Of a stretch of 64,000 bases of DNA, positions 20,408 to 55,312 are shown piece after piece. The notes below the pieces were generated by a model, which was given only the letters and a program-made list of their open reading frames with translations, was not told where the DNA came from and did not search any database. Origin of the DNA: Candidatus Caenarcanales bacterium (GTDB taxonomy: Bacteria > Cyanobacteriota > Vampirovibrionia > 2-02-FULL-35-15); contig JAGVKQ010000020.1 in assembly GCA_020050435.1 (NCBI GenBank), positions 140,012 through 204,011 of the forward strand, written 5' to 3'. Numbering within the stretch: position 1 is the stretch's first letter; each line of letters begins with the position of its first letter. The translations under genes and the position numbers were made by a program.

Positions 20408-20523
20408 TGGCAATCTAACGTAAAATGTCATTCTGAAGGAGTGAAACGACTGAAGAATCTAATAACGTTTTTAGATTCTTCGCCTTCGGCTCAGAATGAC
20501 ACAATACCTTAGTTAGATTGCCA
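20408..20523. repeat. nested palindromic repeat element (~116 bp), copy 1
   Basis: Outer IR tggcaatctaac/gttagattgcca, middle IR gtcattctgaagg/ccttcggctcagaatgac, inner IR tgaagaatcta/tagattcttc. Near-identical second copy at 26835-26951. The right arm supplies the last three codons and stop of the 20513-21664 gene. Confidence 0.8.
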
Positions 20524-21664
20524 TGGTAGAGTCATTAGTAATGCCGTCTCTACAAATAGCTTCTCCGCTTCTTATAGTTAACCAATCTACACAAGTTTTC
20601 CAGACCGTAGATTTAGCTCTTTCACTTCCCATAAGAGAAAGATGTCCAAGAGGAAATTCCATGTATTGAAAGTCATTTGTGGAAATGTATTTCTGAATGG
20701 CTCTTACTGAATCAGCTGGGACAAAAGAATCTCTACTACCAGCTATGGTTAAAAGATTTGCTCTGAAGTTTGAAAGACTTACGACCTGATCAAGTAATTT
20801 CATTTTCCCGTTTATAAGTTCATTTGTAGAAATAGATTCAAACATTTGTTTAAAGGTTGTTTCTGGAAGATTTTGGAAGTTTCCAAAAAAACTATTCAAT
20901 GCCTGACTCTTAACAAGAAAATCTCTATCCCAAGCTCTATTTAATAAGTGCCCTGGTCTTTTAAAATCACCATATAAATTAACTGTCTTAAACATGCAAG
21001 TAAGAAGCTCTTTAGGCATACAACCAAATTTTTCTGAAATGGCAAACCATTCCTTTTTAAAAGGTTTAAAGATTACATTGAAAAACTTTAAATAGCTTAA
21101 ATCTATGGGTCCAGCAATATTAATAACATTTTTAATATCGTTTCTAATATCTATAGAAACACTGGAGTAAATAATGCTAAAAGCTCCACCCAAGCAATAA
21201 CCAAGTAGTGAAACTTGTTCTGAGTTAGAGTGCTTTTTAGTCATATGAACAGCTCTATATAAAAAATTTAAAATATAATCATCTATTTTCAAGTGAGAAT
21301 CATTTCTATCAGGTCTTCCAAAATCCACAAGATAAACATTAAAACCAGCATCTAGAAGCGTTTCAGCCAAACTGTGACTAGGAGTTAAATCTAAAAGATC
21401 AGTAGTAGACATCAAAGGCGGAACTAAAATAACAGGAACACTAAAAATGTTTTCTCTCTTTGGATAGTAATGATAAAGAGTTACATATTTTTCTTGATAT
21501 AAAAGCTTTCTTGCATTATCCCGATTCGGTCTAATATCTTTTTTTATAGCAATTTCTAGGCCATTTAAAGCTCGCAAAAATGTCTTTTCTGTTTGTTCTT
21601 GAATAACAGATTCTAGATTTTTTGGTATTTCCAGGTTAAGAAGTTTTTTAAGATTTAAAAGCAT
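20513..21664 (-). CDS. alpha/beta-hydrolase with lipase box GYCLGG; class III PHA synthase (PhaC)-like
   Basis: 383 aa. LLGYCLGGAFSI (G-x-C-x-G-G). Size as for class III PhaC. No phaE seen. Confidence 0.45.
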   Translation of the reverse strand: MLLNLKKLLNLEIPKNLESVIQEQTEKTFLRALNGLEIAIKKDIRPNRDNARKLLYQEKYVTLYHYYPKRENIFSVPVILVPPLMSTTDLLDLTPSHSLAETLLDAGFNVYLVDFGRPDRNDSHLKIDDYILNFLYRAVHMTKKHSNSEQVSLLGYCLGGAFSIIYSSVSIDIRNDIKNVINIAGPIDLSYLKFFNVIFKPFKKEWFAISEKFGCMPKELLTCMFKTVNLYGDFKRPGHLLNRAWDRDFLVKSQALNSFFGNFQNLPETTFKQMFESISTNELINGKMKLLDQVVSLSNFRANLLTIAGSRDSFVPADSVRAIQKYISTNDFQYMEFPLGHLSLMGSERAKSTVWKTCVDWLTIRSGEAICRDGITNDSTMAI

Positions 21665-26636: not shown

Positions 26637-26834
26637 TATTTATCCTCTTTCTTAAATATTCTATTTCAAACCTATCATGGTTAAGAAATCAAAATCAAGA
26701 AGATTAGAGAAATTTAATTTTTTATAAATGATTTGCCAAAGATTCTGAAGAAAAAATAAAGAAAAGGCGGAGAGCTGGTTAAGATATAGGATTTTCATGC
26801 ATGGTTGAAGAAAAAGAAGAAGACAAAATAAACG

Positions 26835-26951
26835 AAGCAATCTAGTGATGCAGTATGTCATTCTGAATGAGTGAAACGAATGAAGAATCTACTTACGCTA
26901 GTGGATTCTTCGCTAAGGCTCAGAATGACACCTGGCGGTATTAGATTGCTT
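26835..26951. repeat. nested palindromic repeat element (~117 bp), copy 2
   Basis: cgaagcaatcta...gtcattctgaatgagtgaaacgaatgaagaatcta...gattcttcgctaaggctcagaatgacac...tagattgcttcg. Aligns base for base with 20408-20523. Confidence 0.8.
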
Positions 26952-26956
26952 CGTCA

Positions 26957-26985
26957 GGGCTAAAGCCCTTCCTCGCAATGACGTG
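26957..26985. repeat. hairpin agggctaaagccct plus half-site cctcgcaatgacgtg of the second palindromic family
   Basis: Same cctcgcaatgacgtg arm as at 33886-33902 and (reverse) 37904-37918. Confidence 0.6.
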
Positions 26986-32268: not shown

Positions 32269-33555
32269 TTAACCAACACTATCTGTAGGGGTTAAGCTGT
32301 CTTTTATTGACCAACCAAAATGATAGAAATCCCAGTTTTCTCTGCTTCTAACATCACTTACCATAATTTTTGAATAGTCTACATTAAATTTTCTTTTATT
32401 CTCTTCTGCTAAAGCCATTAATCTCACTTCATCTTTTGTGAGATTTGTTTTATTAAGATCCAACTTATTCATTTTTCTATATGCAAGTAAGGCTTTACTT
32501 CCAGCTGAATTGCTATTTAGTTCTTTCGCTTTTATAGATCCAGCATTTTCAGTCATCCCTTTTAATTGAAAGAAAAATTCTTGTTTTTTAAAATTTGACA
32601 TTCCATGTGCTTTTAAAACCAAATGATCTTCAAATGAGAGTTCATTAGAGTATTTGCTCTTTCCTTTATCCTGCCTGTACTGCAGCATAGCATCGATAGC
32701 TTTTCCTTCATCTGCAGTTAGCTTTAATCTATCTTTCAGTTTACTTATGGTTGGTGAAGTATCAGTTTTTATATTACGACCAGGAGCAGATGAGCTCTGA
32801 GTAGGATTGTTATTGTTAGCGGGTTTAGCATTCTTAAGTCTAGCAGCAGACCATGATTTCCATTGTTTTTTAAATGACCCGACATTAACACCTTTCTCTT
32901 TTAAAATATCTTCGTCTAATTTATTCAAAGTACTAAAGTCAGTATCAAAACCCATTCCTTTTCTATATTTAAATAACTTATCAACTGTTGCCTCATGTTC
33001 TTTTGATAGTTTTAGTGATTTTTTAAAATCACTCCAGTCTTTATCCGACACAGAATTAGAATCATTATAGTCAGTGTATTTCATTCCTTCACGTTCAAAA
33101 CCATTACGGTCAACATTAATTTGAAAAACACCTCTTGCTTTTCCTTCAATGCCAAAATAGTTAGCTACGCTGTCCATTTCTGCATATATGCCGGTAGGAT
33201 CAGAAGATTTTCCTGGCGAATTAGATGAATTGGTTGAATTATTGTTTTGTAACCCTAAGGCTCCTCTTTGTGCTGGAGGAGAAGTTCTATTTGGAGTAGA
33301 CTGATTTGATTGTGCAGGCACAGAGCTTCCAGCATTTCCACTTTTTCCAGCAGGGACATCTGCTGGATTGTATGCACCTCTCTGAGCTGATGGAGAAGAA
33401 GATCGCATTTGATTTAATTTTGCAAAATTAGAATTTAGTTGTTGACTTAATGCTTTTTTAGGCTGCTGTTTTGGTTTTTTAGCAGAGTTTTTATACTGGC
33501 CTTTTATTTGGTCAGCAGCAATATTTTTATTATTTATATTGTTTTCAATAGACAT
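32269..33555 (-). CDS. hypothetical protein, paralog B (conserved N-terminus MSIENNINNKNIAADQIKGQ)
   Basis: About 428 aa. SD ggag 7 nt upstream of ATG 33555. Low-complexity basic N-terminal region then a Ser/Asn-rich stretch. Confidence 0.5.
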   Translation of the reverse strand: MSIENNINNKNIAADQIKGQYKNSAKKPKQQPKKALSQQLNSNFAKLNQMRSSSPSAQRGAYNPADVPAGKSGNAGSSVPAQSNQSTPNRTSPPAQRGALGLQNNNSTNSSNSPGKSSDPTGIYAEMDSVANYFGIEGKARGVFQINVDRNGFEREGMKYTDYNDSNSVSDKDWSDFKKSLKLSKEHEATVDKLFKYRKGMGFDTDFSTLNKLDEDILKEKGVNVGSFKKQWKSWSAARLKNAKPANNNNPTQSSSAPGRNIKTDTSPTISKLKDRLKLTADEGKAIDAMLQYRQDKGKSKYSNELSFEDHLVLKAHGMSNFKKQEFFFQLKGMTENAGSIKAKELNSNSAGSKALLAYRKMNKLDLNKTNLTKDEVRLMALAEENKRKFNVDYSKIMVSDVRSRENWDFYHFGWSIKDSLTPTDSVG

Positions 33556-33638
33556 ACAAGCTCCGCATAAAGCCAAAACTATGGATAGAAATTTATGAAA
33601 TTCAATAGGATTAAAGTTAAGATTGGATTAAAATATCA

Positions 33639-34409
33639 TTAATTTTCTCTAACGTATTCATTTGCTATCTCAAAGACTTTTTTAAACATAGCTTTTGTAA
33701 GACGCCCTGTCTGCGTATTTTGCCTACTGGGATGATAACTTGCTATTAAAATGTGTGGCAAGCCTTTTTCATATATGGCTCCGTGAGAGAATTTGAAGTC
33801 TTTTTTTTGTAAGACGTCATTGCGAGGAGAGATCCCTCGCTCTGCTCGGGACAGGCTCCGCAATCTAATAGCGTTAGTAGATTGCCGCGTCGGCTCTTTC
33901 AGAACCTCCTCGCAATGACGTGCTGAGATTGCCCATTTAATGTACCCATCAAAAGCAATTTTTCCAAGAGCCACAACAACTTTTAAATCTTTCAAGAGTT
34001 TCAATTCTTCACCTAAATATGGAAAGCAATTATTCAATTCTTCCGGGGTAGGCTTGTTTTGAGGTGGAGCACACCTGCCAACTGCTGTTATATAACAATC
34101 TTTTAATTTAAATCCATCATTTATATCTATAGAATCAGGCTGATTACATAAACCTACTTCATGTAAAATTGGATACATAAAATTTCCAGAAGAATCACCT
34201 GTAAACATTCTCCCTGTCCTATTTGACCCAAATCTTCCAGGAGCAAGTCCTACAATTAAAATCTTTGCTTTCACATCTCCAAAGCTTGGAACAGGTTTAC
34301 ACCAATAAGACGGGAATTTTTCTCTTATCTCATCTATATACTCAACAAGGCGTGGACACTTTTTACAAGAAGTGATTTGATCATTGAGATCAGCAAGATT
34401 TTTTTTCAT
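33639..34409 (-). CDS. uracil-DNA glycosylase family 4 carrying an in-frame insertion of about 36 aa from a palindromic element
   Basis: CKKCPRL, GLAPG and ASYHPS..QN family-4 blocks. Insert ISARHCEEVLKEPTRQSTNAIRLRSLSRAERGISPRNDV encoded by 33794-33902. Confidence 0.7.
   Translation of the reverse strand: MKKNLADLNDQITSCKKCPRLVEYIDEIREKFPSYWCKPVPSFGDVKAKILIVGLAPGRFGSNRTGRMFTGDSSGNFMYPILHEVGLCNQPDSIDINDGFKLKDCYITAVGRCAPPQNKPTPEELNNCFPYLGEELKLLKDLKVVVALGKIAFDGYIKWAISARHCEEVLKEPTRQSTNAIRLRSLSRAERGISPRNDVLQKKDFKFSHGAIYEKGLPHILIASYHPSRQNTQTGRLTKAMFKKVFEIANEYVREN
33794..33902. mobile_element. GC-rich nested palindromic element (~109 bp) inserted in-frame in the UDG gene
   Basis: Outer IR gacgtcattgcgaggag / ctcctcgcaatgacgtg. 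Inner IR gcaatcta/tagattgc, shared with the 20408 and 26835 elements. Local GC far above flanks. Confidence 0.7.
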
Positions 34410-34438
34410 AAGAAAAGAGCCATGCGGCCGCATGGCTC
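34407..34438 (-). terminator. intrinsic terminator: perfect 22-bp palindrome gagccatgcggccgcatggctc followed by TTTTCTT on the minus strand
   Basis: Lies between the prpC stop (34445) and the UDG start (34409). Confidence 0.6.
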
Positions 34439-36507: not shown

Positions 36508-37878
36508 CTAATTTATCTCAGGAGTAACATTGTTTAAGTCGGAGGCCTTGTCTAAGCCTAAAATTATTTCTATCTGCTTATCAATCTTTTCTTTATCTAA
36601 ATGTGGCTCAGCCAACTTTCTAAACTTGTTAAAAATATCTTCACAAGCCATAGGATTTTTTGGATGCCCAAAAGGATGTAAAACTTCTTTTACTATCTTT
36701 TTTCCACTAAATAAATTAATTTCCAATCTGTTTCCAAAGCTTTTCGGATAATCTTCTGTATATTTCTGATCTTCTACTACTTTTATTTTTTTCATAAACT
36801 TAATCATGGAAGAATCACGATAATTTTTCTTATGAAAACTTTCATCAGATACATCGCCATCACGAAGTGCTATAGCCGTACAATATGGAAGACTGTGATC
36901 TGCTGTTTCTTTAGAAGTCGGTCTCCATTTTTCAGGCTCTGAACCAATGATCTGATAAGAAGCACCATGAGTGTAAACAACCATATCCTGGATTTCATCG
37001 ATTTTCAATCCATCGTTGTAAACCTTAATCGCTGCTTCCACTGCACTTTGGGCGTGATATTCGACTGGATAAGGTTTTATATATGTTTCAAGAATTTTTT
37101 TCGGTGCTTCACCTATTGCAGGAAGCTTTAAATCTATGGGTCCAGAAATCAATGTTTCAAATCCTCTTACTCCTTCAAAAATCGGAGCAGGTCCTGTCAT
37201 TCCTTCACTAGCTAATCTAGCTGCAAATAGTCCCTGGCGAGCAGCATTAGCAAATGCACACGCTTTCCACATGGACATCTCACCGACACGAGTCTGACGA
37301 GTAGCAATATTACAAACACCAGCTATGCCAAGTGCATTTTCTAACTGTTCTGGATTTAAATCCATCAATATAGCAGCACCACAGGCCACAGAAAAAGCAC
37401 CATAAGTTACATGATCTATTCCTTTAGCACGAAGTGATGCACCATCACAAAGCCTGCACTGAATTTCATATGCAATAGCAATCGCTAAAACAAGATCAAG
37501 TCCACTTTTTCCATAAGCCTGAGCACAAGCAATTAATGGAGCAATATTATCTGATGGGTGAGCTGGCTCCAAAGAAAGATAAGTATCATTGAAATCTAAA
37601 TATCTAACAAGTGATCCATTTGCAAAAGCAGCTTCTTCATAAAAAACATCTTTTCCTTTTCCAAAAAGAGGTGCTTTGTATTTTCCTTTAATTCTAGAAC
37701 AAGCTTTTAAAACAATTTTTGCAGCTTTAGAATCATAAGCACCAAAAGCACAGCCCAAACTATCAATGATTCTTCTTTTTACTTCATGAATAACTTCTTT
37801 TGGAAGTGATTCTTTTTTTACAGATAAAACATAATTTGAGATTTGAGAGGCTTTGTTTTTTGTTAATGTTTCTTGCAT
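36508..37878 (-). CDS. prpD: 2-methylcitrate dehydratase (MmgE/PrpD family)
   Basis: About 455 aa MmgE/PrpD architecture. Start taken at the internal ATG; the track begins at GTG inside the 37904 palindrome. Confidence 0.7.
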   Translation of the reverse strand: MQETLTKNKASQISNYVLSVKKESLPKEVIHEVKRRIIDSLGCAFGAYDSKAAKIVLKACSRIKGKYKAPLFGKGKDVFYEEAAFANGSLVRYLDFNDTYLSLEPAHPSDNIAPLIACAQAYGKSGLDLVLAIAIAYEIQCRLCDGASLRAKGIDHVTYGAFSVACGAAILMDLNPEQLENALGIAGVCNIATRQTRVGEMSMWKACAFANAARQGLFAARLASEGMTGPAPIFEGVRGFETLISGPIDLKLPAIGEAPKKILETYIKPYPVEYHAQSAVEAAIKVYNDGLKIDEIQDMVVYTHGASYQIIGSEPEKWRPTSKETADHSLPYCTAIALRDGDVSDESFHKKNYRDSSMIKFMKKIKVVEDQKYTEDYPKSFGNRLEINLFSGKKIVKEVLHPFGHPKNPMACEDIFNKFRKLAEPHLDKEKIDKQIEIILGLDKASDLNNVTPEIN

Positions 37879-37903
37879 GAATAATATAATAGCAAAATTA
37901 TTC

Positions 37904-37928
37904 ACGTCATTGCGAGCCGAATGACGTT
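37904..37928. repeat. short palindrome cacgtcattgcgagccgaatgacgt (second palindromic family)
   Basis: acgtcatt/aatgacgt arms identical to the outer arms of the 33794 element. Confidence 0.6.
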
Positions 37929-37939
37929 ATGCGGAAGAA

Positions 37940-53557: not shown

Positions 53558-55312
53558 ATGAAATTTTTAATCATCGGTGCATCTGGTTTAGTAGGTAATG
53601 CTCTTCTTCAAGAAGGGAAAAAATTAAATCATGAAGTTTTAGGCACTTACTTAAAAAATAAAAGAGAAGGTCTAACTTATTTAGATTATGGAAATAAAAA
53701 AGAAGTAAAAACTCTTATAGATAATTTCTCCCCTGATGTTATTTTATGCCCAGCAGCAAATCCAAATGTAGACTGGAATGAAGAAAATCCTAAAGAGGGT
53801 TGGAATAACAATGTCCAAAGTTTAAACAATCTTCTTGAAATTGTTTCTGATAAAAATATAGATTTTGCTTTTTATAGCACTGATTATTTATTTGATGGGA
53901 AAGATGGTCCTTACTCAGAAGATGTTACTCCTAATCCTATTAATGTATATGGAAAACAAAAGCTTGCTGCTGAGACCCTTGTTAAAAGCTATCTTCCAGG
54001 AAAAAATTATATTTTCAGAACAACTTTAGTTTTTGGGTATGAATTTCAAGGTAAAAATTATGCCTACTCTGTAGTAAAGAATCTTTCATCAAACAAAGAA
54101 ATCAAAGCAGCAAATGATTTATGCGCCACACCCACATATGTCAAAGACATAGCTAGATTTACCTATGAAACCATAAAAAGAAAAACGTATGGCACTTATA
54201 ATCTTGCCAGCAATGATTTTATAAGTAGGTTTGACTTTGCAAATAAAGTAGCAGAAGCTTTTAATTTAAACAAATCTTTAATATTACCCACTACGTATAA
54301 AGAAATGAATGTAAAAACTCAAAGACCATTAAAAGGTGGATTAACCAATAAAAGAATAACTGAATTAACAGGATTGCAATTCACTAGCTTAGAAGATGCT
54401 CTTAAAGACATGAAAAATGATGTGGGCGCGAGCAGGCGAGGTTTGCAAACCTCGCCTGACTTGCCAAGACAAGTCTCAACATCAAAGATTTGTATTTTCA
54501 TTCCTTGTTATAATGCCACCATTACATTACCGAAAGTTTTTGAAAGAATACCAAAAGAAGTAAAAGAAAAAGTAGAAGAAGTATTTGTCATTGATAATGA
54601 CAGCTCTGATTCTACATATTTAATGGCTATAGGATATAGAGAGAAAAAATCTGACATAAAGAATTTAAAAATCTTTAAAAATGAAAAGAACTTTGGCTAT
54701 GGCGGCAGCCAGAAAGTAGCATATGCTCATGCTATAAAAAGCGGATATGACATGGTAGTGATGCTACACGGTGATGCACAATATGCTCCTGAAAAACTTC
54801 CTATAATGATACAAAAAATGGAAGAAGATCCCTCTATTGATTTACTTTTTGGGTCAAGAATGAATGGTGATCCTCTTAAAGGTGGAATGCCATTTCACAG
54901 GTTCTTAGGAAACAAAGCACTAACTTTCATGCAAAACTTTTTGCTCAGAACAAATATCAGCGAGTTTCACTCTGGTTATAGAATATTTAGAACATCAGCT
55001 CTAAAAAAAGTCCCATTTCATCTTTGTAGCAGTGATTACCATTTTGACACTGAGGTAATTATATTATTTATTAAAAACAAATTAAACATAGCAGAAGTTC
55101 CTATAGACACTCATTATGGAGATGAAAAAAATTATGTGAAGATTTGGCAGTATGGGCTAAATGTTCTTATAGCGACATTAGCTTTCTTTTTATATCAAAA
55201 AGGAATTAGAAAATTATTTAACTTTAATTTAGAAAAATATGAGATGTATAAAGAGAACGTAGAAGCTGATGTTGAAAAAATAACTAAAGATTTCAAAAGT
55301 GAACAATATTAG
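53558..55312 (+). CDS. fusion protein: N-terminal RmlD-like NAD(P)-dependent 4-ketosugar reductase domain plus C-terminal family-2 glycosyltransferase (polyprenyl-phosphate GT-like) with C-terminal TM
   Basis: MKFLIIGASGLVGNAL Rossmann start and RmlD-like length. After the linker GASRRGLQTSPDLP: ICIFIPCYNAT ... VIDNDSSDST ... GT2 motifs. The linker is encoded by a GC palindrome (54435-54475). Confidence 0.6.
   Translation: MKFLIIGASGLVGNALLQEGKKLNHEVLGTYLKNKREGLTYLDYGNKKEVKTLIDNFSPDVILCPAANPNVDWNEENPKEGWNNNVQSLNNLLEIVSDKNIDFAFYSTDYLFDGKDGPYSEDVTPNPINVYGKQKLAAETLVKSYLPGKNYIFRTTLVFGYEFQGKNYAYSVVKNLSSNKEIKAANDLCATPTYVKDIARFTYETIKRKTYGTYNLASNDFISRFDFANKVAEAFNLNKSLILPTTYKEMNVKTQRPLKGGLTNKRITELTGLQFTSLEDALKDMKNDVGASRRGLQTSPDLPRQVSTSKICIFIPCYNATITLPKVFERIPKEVKEKVEEVFVIDNDSSDSTYLMAIGYREKKSDIKNLKIFKNEKNFGYGGSQKVAYAHAIKSGYDMVVMLHGDAQYAPEKLPIMIQKMEEDPSIDLLFGSRMNGDPLKGGMPFHRFLGNKALTFMQNFLLRTNISEFHSGYRIFRTSALKKVPFHLCSSDYHFDTEVIILFIKNKLNIAEVPIDTHYGDEKNYVKIWQYGLNVLIATLAFFLYQKGIRKLFNFNLEKYEMYKENVEADVEKITKDFKSEQY
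54435..54475. repeat. GC-rich double hairpin ggcgaggtttgcaaacctcgcc plus gacttgccaagacaagtc at the domain junction
   Basis: Perfect 22-bp palindrome followed by a 6-bp-arm hairpin. About 65% GC in a 30% GC gene. Confidence 0.7.

What the first reader, a model, noticed from the sequence alone, without database searches (positions are those of the whole stretch)
33794..33902. Palindromic GC-rich element inserted in-frame inside the uracil-DNA glycosylase gene
A 109-bp element lies within the family-4 UDG coding sequence between the catalytic N-terminal blocks and the ASYHPS motif. It is bounded by the 17-bp inverted repeat gacgtcattgcgaggag/ctcctcgcaatgacgtg and contains the gcaatcta/tagattgc inner hairpin. 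It adds about 36 residues (ISARHCEEVLKEPTRQ...GISPRNDV) without breaking the frame. This is the hallmark of the in-frame palindromic elements reported in a few other AT-rich genomes. It implies an active or recently active element family that can remodel proteins.
Basis: partly seen in the sequence, partly recalled or inferred. Interest (0 to 1): 0.7.

Follow-up and report, generated by a model that had tools for sequence, protein, structure and literature searches.

The report
Palindromic repeat translated inside a DNA-repair gene
A 108-base GC-rich palindromic repeat of the REP/RPE kind sits in frame in a surface loop of a uracil-DNA glycosylase gene of a probable melainabacterium; this is a known phenomenon seen in a new host group, with an unusually well-conserved element.

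Summary
The element is real, but it lies about 19 nt to the right of the reported coordinates. Its perfect 16-nt arms are at 33814-33829 and 33906-33921, with CGTC tags at 33815-33818 and 33917-33920.

It lies in frame on the minus strand in a family-5 (not family-4) uracil-DNA glycosylase. It adds about 36 residues that AlphaFold predicts as a disordered loop.

Each half has the form CGTC-ATTGC...GCAAT-CTA. The whole is a tags-outside inverted dimer, like the CGTC-tagged REP superfamily that includes Rickettsia RPE-4 and RPE-6. The unit architecture differs from the four described CGTC families.

The family is dispersed:
- There are at least 120 perfect-armed copies in metagenomes, on contigs of 33-70% GC. 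Most are intergenic.
- In-frame copies occur in acetyl-CoA synthetase, Lnt and an MGMT-like repair protein.
- The window also holds nested, collapsed and sister-family copies.

Syntenic orthologs carry the same element at the same loop. Others carry remnants, other REP types, or nothing.

The unexpected result is conservation. The element is 91-100% identical between orthologs whose flanking third-codon positions are only 46-61% identical. That points to homogenisation, re-insertion or nucleotide-level selection.

Verdict: a new variant of a known kind, of moderate interest.

The parts
33639..34409 (-). Host gene: family-5 uracil-DNA glycosylase (UDGB-like), 256 aa plus stop. A longer 264-aa ORF reaches 34433.
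   Evidence: Listed as an ORF. Pfam PF03167, E = 2.8e-31. PDB 2d3y, E = 3.4e-57. Foldseek 2d3y, target-normalised TM 0.88. The JGI product P0001 starts at MKKNLADL. A terminator-like hairpin covers 34417-34438.
33815..33920 (-). The palindromic element, from CGTC tag to CGTC tag (106 nt; 108 nt with the extra A/T pair at 33814/33921). It is translated in frame as RHCEEVLKEPTRQSTNAIRLRSLSRAERGISPRND.
33814..33829 (.). Left outer arm ACGTCATTGCGAGGAG, with the CGTC tag at 33815-33818.
   Evidence: (I1, 16 nt, 100% complementary).
33906..33921 (.). Right outer arm CTCCTCGCAATGACGT, with the GACG tag at 33917-33920.
33860..33885 (.). Central hairpin GCAATCTA-(ATAGCGTTAG)-TAGATTGC. It is formed by the tails of the two units. 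The loop AACGYTAT is shared by the melainabacterial copies.
33892..33906 (-). Inner hairpin of the 5' unit in the sense direction: GGUUCU-GAA-AGAGCC, with one G.U pair on the mRNA strand. Orthologs have GCTCT/AGAGC or the doubly compensated GCACA/TGTGC.
33833..33851 (-). Inner hairpin of the 3' unit in the sense direction (UCCCGAGCAGAGCGAGGGA). This unit type differs from the one in the orthologs (GCAAC-AAA-GTTGC). It recurs as a solo half-element at L084:1855-1925.
26826..26985 (.). Intergenic composite copy. The right outer arm TCCTCGCAATGACGTG and the central stem of the same family are present. A sister-family dimer (TGTCATTCTGAA...) is nested inside.
20408..20523 (.). Composite copy, intergenic except that its last 11 nt overlap the 3' end of ORF 20513-21664: a GCAATCTAAC/GTTAGATTGC stem encloses a sister-family dimer (TGTCATTCTGAAGGAG...GAAGAATCTA).
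37903..37930 (.). Collapsed mini-palindrome CACGTCATT-GCGAGCCG-AATGACGT that keeps both tags. It lies between two minus-strand genes.

Best explanation
The feature is a non-autonomous palindromic repeat of the REP/RPE kind. It consists of two inverted units, each built as YGTC tag, ATTGC, GAGGAG, a variable small hairpin, CGACGnn, GCAAT and a 3-nt tail. The units are arranged with their tags outward, which Di Nocera et al. call an 'HH dimer' and Bertels and Rainey call a REPIN-like doublet. As single-stranded DNA or RNA it folds into a very stable four-way junction.

It entered the codons of a loop at the end of a helix in a family-5 uracil-DNA glycosylase. Its length is a multiple of three and the frame in use has no stop codon, so it is simply translated. 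It adds about 36 residues as a floppy surface loop that the enzyme tolerates.

The insertion is old in this melainabacterial clade. Since then it has been kept close to the family consensus in some lineages, collapsed to short remnants in others, and replaced by or joined with other REP types in others.

What is shown:
- the anatomy of the element;
- the in-frame position;
- empty and remnant alleles in orthologs;
- dispersal of the family, including nesting;
- in-frame copies in other genes;
- constraint at the nucleotide level rather than the protein level.

What is inferred:
- that the insert is translated and tolerated;
- that mobilisation works on hairpins in single-stranded DNA through an unidentified HUH/RAYT-like or host enzyme;
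- that the high conservation comes from gene conversion or re-insertion from a conserved master sequence.
For: Anatomy and significance.

Insertion relative to structure and orthologs:
- Query residues 165-207 face 2d3y residues 159-163.
- Outgroup UDGs have 10-14-aa loops, against 48 aa here.
- Syntenic orthologs (citrate synthase followed by UDG) either have the element (L081-L085, L209), a 3' remnant (L086), or nothing (L087, L001, L002).

Protein structure: in the AlphaFold model the core has pLDDT above 90 and residues 178-205 are below 50.

Superfamily features:
- C or T precedes GTCATT in 117 of 119 copies, and there is no excess of target-site duplications of 3 nt or more.
- After GCAAT the commonest tail is CCA (49 copies), then CTC (31).
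- The tags face outward.
- These match the CGTC-tagged REPs described in PMC3733652, whose intragenic copies often lie in replication and repair genes.

Dispersal:
- 103 of 122 copies share the internal GCAATC...GATTGC, which the search pattern did not require.
- Copies occur in named Chloroflexota and Thermodesulfobacteriota MAG loci.
- About 100 of 122 copies are not inside long ORFs.
- In-frame copies lie in acetyl-CoA synthetase, Lnt and an MGMT-like protein. They use different reading frames.
- Nested and collapsed copies are present in the window.

Nucleotide-level constraint: between orthologs, identity in the element is 0.91-0.99 overall and 0.91-1.00 at third-codon positions. In the flanks it is 0.70-0.79 overall and 0.46-0.61 at third-codon positions.

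Structure kept: 7 of 39 consensus pairs show double compensatory changes.
Against: - The unit does not fit the four described CGTC families. Its local closing stem is 5 bp with a long structured interior, not an 8-9 bp stem with a 4-5 nt loop.
- No transposase candidate was found. phmmer with seven RAYT/TIRYT sequences gave no hit in the window or in any fetched locus. Mobility is therefore inferred only from dispersal, nesting and presence/absence.
- A neutral, vertically inherited insertion should have diverged as much as the synonymous sites around it. It has not, so simple 'tolerated junk' is incomplete.
- Translation of the insert and activity of the enzyme are untested.
- The host taxon rests on UDG relatives named Candidatus Melainabacteria at 58-65% identity.
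Confidence: 0.8

Rival explanations
1. The intact four-way-junction sequence is itself under selection inside this gene. It could act as an mRNA structure that tunes translation or stability of the UDG message. Alternatively it could be a DNA structure or protein-binding site. The translated loop would then be a by-product.
For: - The element is 91-100% identical between orthologs whose flanking third-codon positions are 46-61% identical.
- Stems are kept through double compensatory changes.
- The three single-sided stem changes seen in the UDG copies are all G.U-compatible on the mRNA strand.
- The fold is very stable (z = -5.85).
Against: - Many close orthologs have lost or collapsed the element, or carry unrelated REP types at the same loop.
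- Nearly identical copies sit in unrelated contexts, namely the MGMT-like gene in L165 and an intergenic site in L163. The conservation therefore follows the repeat family, not the UDG locus.
- Three of three G.U-compatible changes has a chance probability of 0.125.
- L165 has a C.A mismatch on its sense strand.
- No terminator-like tail follows the hairpin.
- There is no Rfam match.
Confidence: 0.12
2. The copies in different lineages are independent, recent, site-specific insertions (homing) into the same loop, rather than descendants of one old insertion.
For: - A neighbour-joining tree of the UDG core interleaves element-bearing, remnant, GTAG-like and CGTC-1-bearing sequences.
- The 'ALKE' and 'AQNV' inner-hairpin variants do not follow that tree.
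- Element identity far exceeds flank identity.
- Three different REP types occupy the same loop.
- The window copy has exchanged its 3' unit for another unit type.
Against: - The 3' junction ...AATGACGT(T/C)TTAC... and RND(V/I)L remnants recur across the tree with the same junction. That is what an ancestral copy followed by repeated collapse predicts.
- The tree has 189 columns, was built by neighbour joining and has no support values.
- No enzyme or target motif has been identified.
- This reading is a sub-mechanism of the best explanation, not an alternative identity.
Confidence: 0.25
3. The insert is a selected protein module, a functional loop or interaction peptide acquired by the glycosylase.
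For: The insert has been retained in frame in at least 11 divergent orthologs. The first part of it extends a native helix in the model (H158-179).
Against: - Third-codon positions are as conserved as first and second positions, so the constraint is on nucleotides, not amino acids.
- The same DNA is read in other frames in other host proteins: SLRGG in L165 and VIARS in L096.
- pLDDT is below 50 for residues 178-205.
- Close orthologs function with 10-16-aa loops.
Confidence: 0.04
4. The feature is an assembly artefact or a chance palindrome.
For: None beyond the metagenomic origin of the sequence.
Against: Independent assemblies from ENA, JGI and NCBI carry the same insertion in the same gene. 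The chance expectation is 0.01 matches.
Confidence: 0.01

Closest known systems
CGTC-tagged REP superfamily (Di Nocera, De Gregorio & Rocco 2013, BMC Genomics 14:522, PMC3733652), which includes R. conorii RPE-4 and RPE-6 and Neisseria dRS3
   Same: - An unpaired CGTC/TGTC tag at the outer end.
- A stem that starts with A-T pairs.
- A 3-nt tail, most often CCA.
- Mostly tags-outside (HH) dimers, often heterodimers with structured spacers.
- Dispersed and mostly intergenic, with a minority in frame inside genes, notably DNA replication and repair genes.
- No dedicated transposase known.
- Some orthologs of this very UDG carry canonical CGTC-1/CGTC-3 units at the same loop (TGTC-ATTCCCGC-GAAA-GCGGGAAT-CCA, peptide VIPAKAGI).
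   Different: - The unit here closes with only 5 bp (ATTGC/GCAAT). It encloses about 30 nt containing its own variable hairpin, instead of an 8-9 bp stem and a 4-5 nt loop.
- The dimer forms a four-way junction.
- The host phylum (Melainabacteria, sister of Cyanobacteria) and the Chloroflexota and Thermodesulfobacteriota hosts are not among the five phyla listed for CGTC repeats.
- The HCEE/SLRG/VIAR peptides are absent from that paper's list of intragenic REPs.
Rickettsia palindromic elements (RPE; Ogata et al. 2000, 2002, as summarised in PMC2229807 and PMC10969869)
   Same: - Palindromic repeats of about 100-150 bp with terminal inverted repeats and long stem-loops.
- Inserted in frame into conserved protein genes.
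- Regarded as tolerated, neutral or slightly harmful insertions. For example, the guanylate kinase carrying an RPE is still active.
   Different: - The host is different.
- No sequence relationship to the long RPE-1 type was tested.
- This family spans many phyla and GC contents, whereas RPEs were described as Rickettsia-specific.
REPINs and RAYTs (Bertels & Rainey 2011, PMC3116915; PMC3337134; bioRxiv 10.1101/2021.07.10.451892)
   Same: - Two inverted REP units separated by a short spacer and forming one hairpin.
- Populations with a conserved master sequence.
- Vertical persistence over long times.
- No target-site duplication.
   Different: - REPINs are defined by GTAG-type REPs and a cognate single-copy RAYT gene flanked by them.
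- Here the tag is CGTC, and no RAYT was found in the sequence available.
Bacterial MITEs with in-frame copies (Correia/NEMIS 107-bp form, ERIC, YPAL; PMC2229807)
   Same: Small non-autonomous repeats with terminal inverted repeats and stable hairpin transcripts, in which open frames allow fusion to host ORFs.
   Different: Those elements have target-site duplications (often TA) and, for some, known cognate transposases. No duplication is seen here.
Family-5 uracil-DNA glycosylase, T. thermophilus UDGB (PDB 2d3y, 2ddg)
   Same: - The host protein shares GLAPG...GSNRTGR..FTGD, CAPPxNKP and the SYH(P/V)SRQNTQTGRLT block, plus the four cysteines (C23, C26, C121, C136).
- Identity is 41% and target-normalised TM is 0.88.
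   Different: About 38 extra residues lie between structure residues 158 and 164.

Membership tests
CGTC-tagged REP superfamily (PMC3733652) | Unpaired terminal tetranucleotide CGTC (variants TGTC, CCTC) at one end of each unit | tested here: met
   The window has CGTC at 33815-33818 and GACG at 33917-33920. C or T precedes GTCATT in 117 of 119 metagenome copies, and G or A follows AATGAC in 113 of 119.
CGTC-tagged REP superfamily (PMC3733652) | Stem of 8-9 bp beginning with complementary A-T pairs, and a loop of 4-5 nt | tested here: not met
   The stem does begin with A-T, T-A (ATTGC/GCAAT). However, only 5 bp close each unit, and the interior is about 30 nt with its own hairpin.
CGTC-tagged REP superfamily (PMC3733652) | Three-nucleotide unpaired tail, consensus CCA | tested here: met
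   After GCAAT the family has CCA in 49 copies, CTC in 31 and CCC in 11. The window copy has CTA, which pairs with the partner unit's TAG.
CGTC-tagged REP superfamily (PMC3733652) | Mostly head-to-head dimers with the tags outside, often heterodimers | tested here: met
   The tags are outside in the window and in all copies retrieved, although the search pattern required this. The window copy is a heterodimer of two unit types.
CGTC-tagged REP superfamily (PMC3733652) | Multi-copy and dispersed, mainly intergenic, with some intragenic in-frame copies | tested here: met
   At least 120 stretches matched. About 100 of 122 copies are not in long ORFs. In-frame copies lie in acetyl-CoA synthetase, Lnt and an MGMT-like protein. 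The copy number in the source genome itself could not be measured.
Rickettsia palindromic elements (RPE) | Belongs to one of the RPE sequence families of Rickettsia genomes | tested here: not met
   The host groups with Melainabacteria. The peptides encoded by RPE-4 and RPE-6 (VIPAKAGI, SFPRKRES, WIPWSNHGM) differ from RHCEE...PRND. The long RPE-1 consensus was not available for comparison.
Rickettsia palindromic elements (RPE) | Palindrome of about 100-150 bp inserted in frame in conserved genes at positions compatible with the fold | tested here: met
   108 nt, in frame, in a loop with pLDDT below 50, with an intact core fold.
REPIN-RAYT system | Two inverted REPs with a short spacer forming one hairpin | tested here: met
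REPIN-RAYT system | Cognate RAYT (HUH-Y1 transposase) gene in the genome, flanked by the REPs | tested here: inconclusive
   phmmer with seven RAYT/TIRYT sequences gave no hit in the window, 11 melainabacterial loci and 120 element-bearing loci. The rest of the genome is not available, and single-sequence searches are insensitive.
Classical MITE | Terminal inverted repeats plus target-site duplication, and a related autonomous IS | tested here: not met
   Terminal inverted repeats are present. There is no excess of flanking direct repeats of 3-5 nt at four boundary offsets. No related IS was seen.
Family-5 UDG (UDGB), the host gene | Closest to UDGB in sequence and fold, motif A GLAPG lacking the acidic catalytic residue of family 4 (GEAPG; from general knowledge of UDG families), and four Fe-S cysteines | tested here: met
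   2d3y at E = 3.4e-57, against 1.2e-08 for the best family-4 chain. Foldseek gives target-normalised TM 0.88 and 41% identity, against about 0.7 and 22%. GLAPG and C23/C26/C121/C136 are invariant.
Known structured RNA families (Rfam 15) | A match to a curated covariance model | tested here: not met
   There was no match on the element in the window. On 14 loci with canonical copies only sub-threshold matches to miRNA-precursor hairpins appeared.

The most novel reading that the evidence does not exclude
The ATTGCGAGG-type CGTC doublet may not be a passive passenger. It could be a cross-phylum, actively maintained DNA or RNA structure that homes to, or is selectively kept in, particular sites.

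Three observations point this way. The same UDG loop carries it in many lineages. A near-identical copy sits in a second repair gene, the MGMT-like one. Its sequence stays almost invariant while synonymous sites around it saturate.

If this is true, it would expose the still unknown mobilisation or maintenance machinery of CGTC-tagged repeats. It might also reveal a functional link between these repeats and DNA-repair genes, as Di Nocera et al. speculated.
Probability: 0.12. Interest if true: 0.75.

Novelty: new variant of a known kind. Interest (0 to 1): 0.42.

Why it matters
In-frame palindromic repeats are usually presented as a Rickettsia curiosity. This case shows the same process in a non-photosynthetic relative of cyanobacteria.

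It involves a repeat family that spans several phyla and GC contents. Within one clade a single enzyme loop holds the element, its remnants, empty alleles and other REP types, which amounts to a natural experiment on how proteins absorb such insertions.

The contrast between element identity (91-100%) and flanking synonymous-site identity (46-61%) makes one question directly testable in MAG collections: are CGTC-type repeats kept uniform by gene conversion, by re-insertion or by selection? No transposase is known for these repeats.

For annotation, such inserts inflate protein lengths and create spurious N-terminal extensions. Both effects are visible among the orthologs here.

Tried and rejected
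- **Exact look-up of the window's product.** Neither the 264-aa nor the 256-aa form is on record, so the source contig could not be extended.
- **Genome-contig scan with the UDG alignment.** Only two Melainabacteria loci came back.
- **Peptide search for host proteins.** The duplicated 68-aa version collected only 16 candidates and gave 1 hit, which is uninformative.
- **Transposase search.** No RAYT/TIRYT homolog was found in any sequence held.
- **Known RNA families.** Rfam gave no family.
- **Terminator reading.** Rejected, because no T-run follows the hairpin on either strand.
- **Classical MITE.** Rejected, because there is no target-site duplication.
- **Intein, intron or other excised element.** Not pursued. 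The insert is 108 nt with no such motifs, and intact ORFs with the insert are conserved across many lineages.
- **High-GC 'in-frame' candidates from the metagenome copies.** Most look like spurious antisense ORFs and were not counted.
- **Literature searches.** A full-text search for the element's sequence strings listed only unrelated papers among the 20 of 74 shown. A search on Melainabacteria plus palindromic repeats found nothing relevant. Ogata et al. 2002 (PMC186582) is not held.
Full report
**Observation**

The quoted sequences are present, but 19-20 nt to the right of the stated interval.
- GACGTCATTGCGAGGAG is at 33813-33829, and its partner CTCCTCGCAATGACGTG is at 33906-33922.
- The perfect inverted repeat is 16 nt (33814-33829 / 33906-33921, 76 nt apart). 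The 17th position is a mismatch.
- The inner hairpin GCAATCTA/TAGATTGC is at 33860-33867 / 33878-33885.
- The 17-mer with up to 3 mismatches occurs four times in the window, against 0.01 expected.
- The sense strand folds at -53.5 kcal/mol, z = -5.85 against dinucleotide shuffles.
- The element is 56% GC. The rest of the gene is 35% and the window is 33.5%.

**Host gene**

The element lies inside the minus-strand ORF 33639..34433.
- Pfam assigns the protein to the UDG superfamily.
- Its best solved relative by far is T. thermophilus UDGB, a family-5 enzyme. 2d3y scores E = 3.4e-57, against 1e-8 for family-4 chains. Foldseek gives target-normalised TM 0.88 and 41% identity.
- GLAPG, CAPPQNKP, SYHPSRQNTQTGRLT and four cysteines are invariant among relatives.
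- A GC-rich hairpin followed by a T-run at 34417-34438, together with the JGI gene call P0001, suggests the true start is the Met at 34409.

**The insertion is real**

- HMMER aligns query residues 19-164 and 208-255 to 2d3y residues 9-158 and 164-211. That leaves 43 query residues opposite 5 in the structure.
- In more distant UDGs the segment between GKIAFDGY and FxFxHGA is 10-14 aa. Here it is 48 aa.
- AlphaFold, run with 38 homologs, gives a confident core. Residues 178-205 have pLDDT below 50. The native helix is extended into the first part of the insert.
- The element encodes R172-D206 plus two split codons, so 'about 36 residues in frame' is right.
- Of the three sense-strand frames, only the one in use is open in this copy.

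**Orthologs**

The closest relatives are named Candidatus Melainabacteria. They share the gene order PEP-mutase/ICL, citrate synthase, UDG, Obg.

At the same loop they show several states:
- Eleven of the 120 best UDG relatives, the window's own product P0001 among them, carry the same element (peptide TRHCEE..PTRQSPNVMRLLRRNKVAPRND).
- At least five keep only its 3' end (RNDVL...). L086 shows a deletion between two CGTC repeats.
- Two carry a canonical CGTC-1/CGTC-3 dimer (TGTC-ATTCCCGC-GAAA-GCGGGAAT-CCA ... peptide VIPAKAGIQ...RVKPDND; L208).
- At least twelve carry a different palindrome (VRADxCVCP; L210).
- Others have 10-20-aa loops.

On a rough neighbour-joining tree these states are interleaved.

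**What kind of element it is**

Each half reads CGTC-ATTGC-GAGGAG-[variable hairpin]-CGACGnn-GCAAT-CTA. The two halves are inverted with the CGTC tags outside.

This corresponds to the CGTC-tagged REP superfamily of Di Nocera et al. (PMC3733652). That superfamily has:
- a CGTC or TGTC tag;
- stems that begin with A-T;
- a 3-nt CCA-type tail;
- predominance of tags-outside 'HH' dimers, often heterodimers with structured spacers;
- intragenic copies, particularly in replication and repair genes;
- no dedicated transposase.

R. conorii RPE-4 and RPE-6 belong to it.

In those copies:
- C or T precedes GTCATT in 117 of 119, and there is no excess of target-site duplications.
- 103 of 122 share the internal GCAATC...GATTGC, and about 100 share CGACGnnGCAA. 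Neither was required by the pattern.
- The commonest tail is CCA.

The motif also occurs in named Anaerolineaceae, Chloroflexota and Thermodesulfobacteriota MAG loci.

The unit does not meet the 8-9 bp stem and 4-5 nt loop definition of the four described CGTC families. I therefore treat it as a variant rather than a member.

Rfam has no corresponding family.

**Dispersal, nesting and in-frame copies**

About 100 of the 122 metagenome copies are not inside long ORFs. Three low-GC copies are in frame in real genes:
- acetyl-CoA synthetase (L096, frame VIARS...LLAMT);
- apolipoprotein N-acyltransferase (L174, frame HCEERSDEAI);
- an MGMT/ATL-like DNA_binding_1 protein (L165, frame SLRGG).

All three reading frames are used. 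That argues against a selected peptide.

The window itself holds several related copies:
- a composite at 26826-26985, in which a sister-family dimer (TGTC-ATTCTGAAGGAG...GAAGAATCTA) is nested in the central stem of an ATTGCGAGG-type element;
- a similar composite at 20408-20523;
- a collapsed mini-palindrome at 37903-37930.

The window's 3' unit differs from that of the orthologs. It recurs as a solo half-element in L084. The UDG copy is therefore a heterodimer that has exchanged one unit.

**The unexpected part**

Between orthologs L081, L083, L084 and L085:
- flanking coding DNA is 70-79% identical overall, and only 46-61% at third-codon positions;
- the element is 91-99% identical overall, and 91-100% at third-codon positions.

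The paralogous copy in the MGMT-like gene is about as similar. Stems are kept through double compensatory changes, for example GCTCT/AGAGC versus GCACA/TGTGC and GCAATCTC/GAGATTGC versus GCAATCTA/TAGATTGC. Seven of 39 consensus pairs show such changes.

A neutral, vertically inherited insert would not behave this way. The constraint is on nucleotides, not on the peptide.

The REPIN literature describes master sequences that stay constant across a species while individual copies decay. Three explanations remain open:
- gene conversion or re-insertion from such a master;
- site-specific insertion;
- direct selection on the structure.

The shared 3' junction and the scattered RND remnants favour an old insertion with later homogenisation or collapse. 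The interleaved tree keeps recurrent insertion open.

**Mechanism, with status of each step**

- Shown: a palindromic CGTC-tagged doublet lies in frame in a permissive loop. The family is dispersed, nested and polymorphic among lineages. It is constrained at the nucleotide level.
- Inferred: the insert is translated and tolerated as a disordered loop. By analogy with IS200/IS605-RAYT systems, mobilisation acts on single-stranded hairpins next to the tag. No such enzyme was found in the sequence available.

**Novelty and score**

In-frame palindromic repeats (RPE) and intragenic REPs in repair genes are already described. New here are:
- the host group;
- the unit architecture and its four-way-junction dimer;
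- the cross-phylum spread of this particular family;
- one enzyme loop that records several REP types;
- the strong excess of element conservation over synonymous-site conservation.

I rate it a new variant of a known kind, with interest about 0.4.

Noticed in passing
window 26826-26985 and 20408-20523: Nested composites. A dimer of a sister repeat family (TGTC-ATTCTGAAGGAG...GAAGAATCTA) sits inside the central GCAATCTA/TAGATTGC stem of an ATTGCGAGG-type element. The first is intergenic. The last 11 nt of the second overlap the 3' end of ORF 20513-21664.
   Followed up: partly
window 37903-37930: Mini-palindrome CACGTCATT-GCGAGCCG-AATGACGT between two minus-strand genes. It looks like a collapsed copy that keeps both CGTC tags. 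It overlaps the GTG start listed for ORF 36508-37905.
   Followed up: partly
window 54425-54460 (ORF 53558-55312): A perfect 13+13-nt palindrome CAGGCGAGGTTTG/CAAACCTCGCCTG is translated (SRRGLQTSPD). It lies exactly in the linker between an RmlD-type reductase domain (residues 1-288) and a family-2 glycosyltransferase domain (312-485). A small palindromic repeat may have fused two genes.
   Followed up: partly
window 34417-34438: The GC-rich perfect palindrome GAGCCATGCGGCCGCATGGCTC followed by a T-run looks like a terminator, read on the minus strand. It lies just downstream of citrate synthase. It overlaps the first codons of the 264-aa UDG ORF, so the UDG start is more likely 34409.
   Followed up: partly
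UDG orthologs P0006, P0008, P0011, P0013, P0058 (N-termini); L209:3088-3190 (C-terminus): Further copies of the same repeat family lie at the 5' and 3' ends of the UDG gene in other lineages. They are annotated as N-terminal extensions (MSLRGGQSPTKQS..., MTCHCEERSDEAIS...) or C-terminal extensions. The N-terminal ones are probably intergenic copies swallowed by over-long gene calls.
   Followed up: partly
UDG orthologs P0007, P0049, P0064 (DVKTPQRGVS); P0018, P0070, P0071 (NPLRRGLPWQ); P0068: Other short palindrome-encoded inserts occur at two further positions of the UDG protein in related lineages. These genomes seem generally rich in intragenic REP-type repeats.
   Followed up: no
L165:3917-4318: An MGMT/ATL-like DNA-repair protein (motif IPWQRV) in a 33%-GC contig carries a near-identical copy of the orthologs' UDG element in frame, just before its active-site-like motif. 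This is a second repair gene hit by the same subfamily.
   Followed up: partly
window 32269-33576 (minus strand): Immediately downstream of UDG lies a 435-aa ORF with a long low-complexity N-terminal part rich in S, N, P and Q. Its syntenic counterparts had no Pfam hit on record, or in L087 only a weak PRMT5 one.
   Followed up: no
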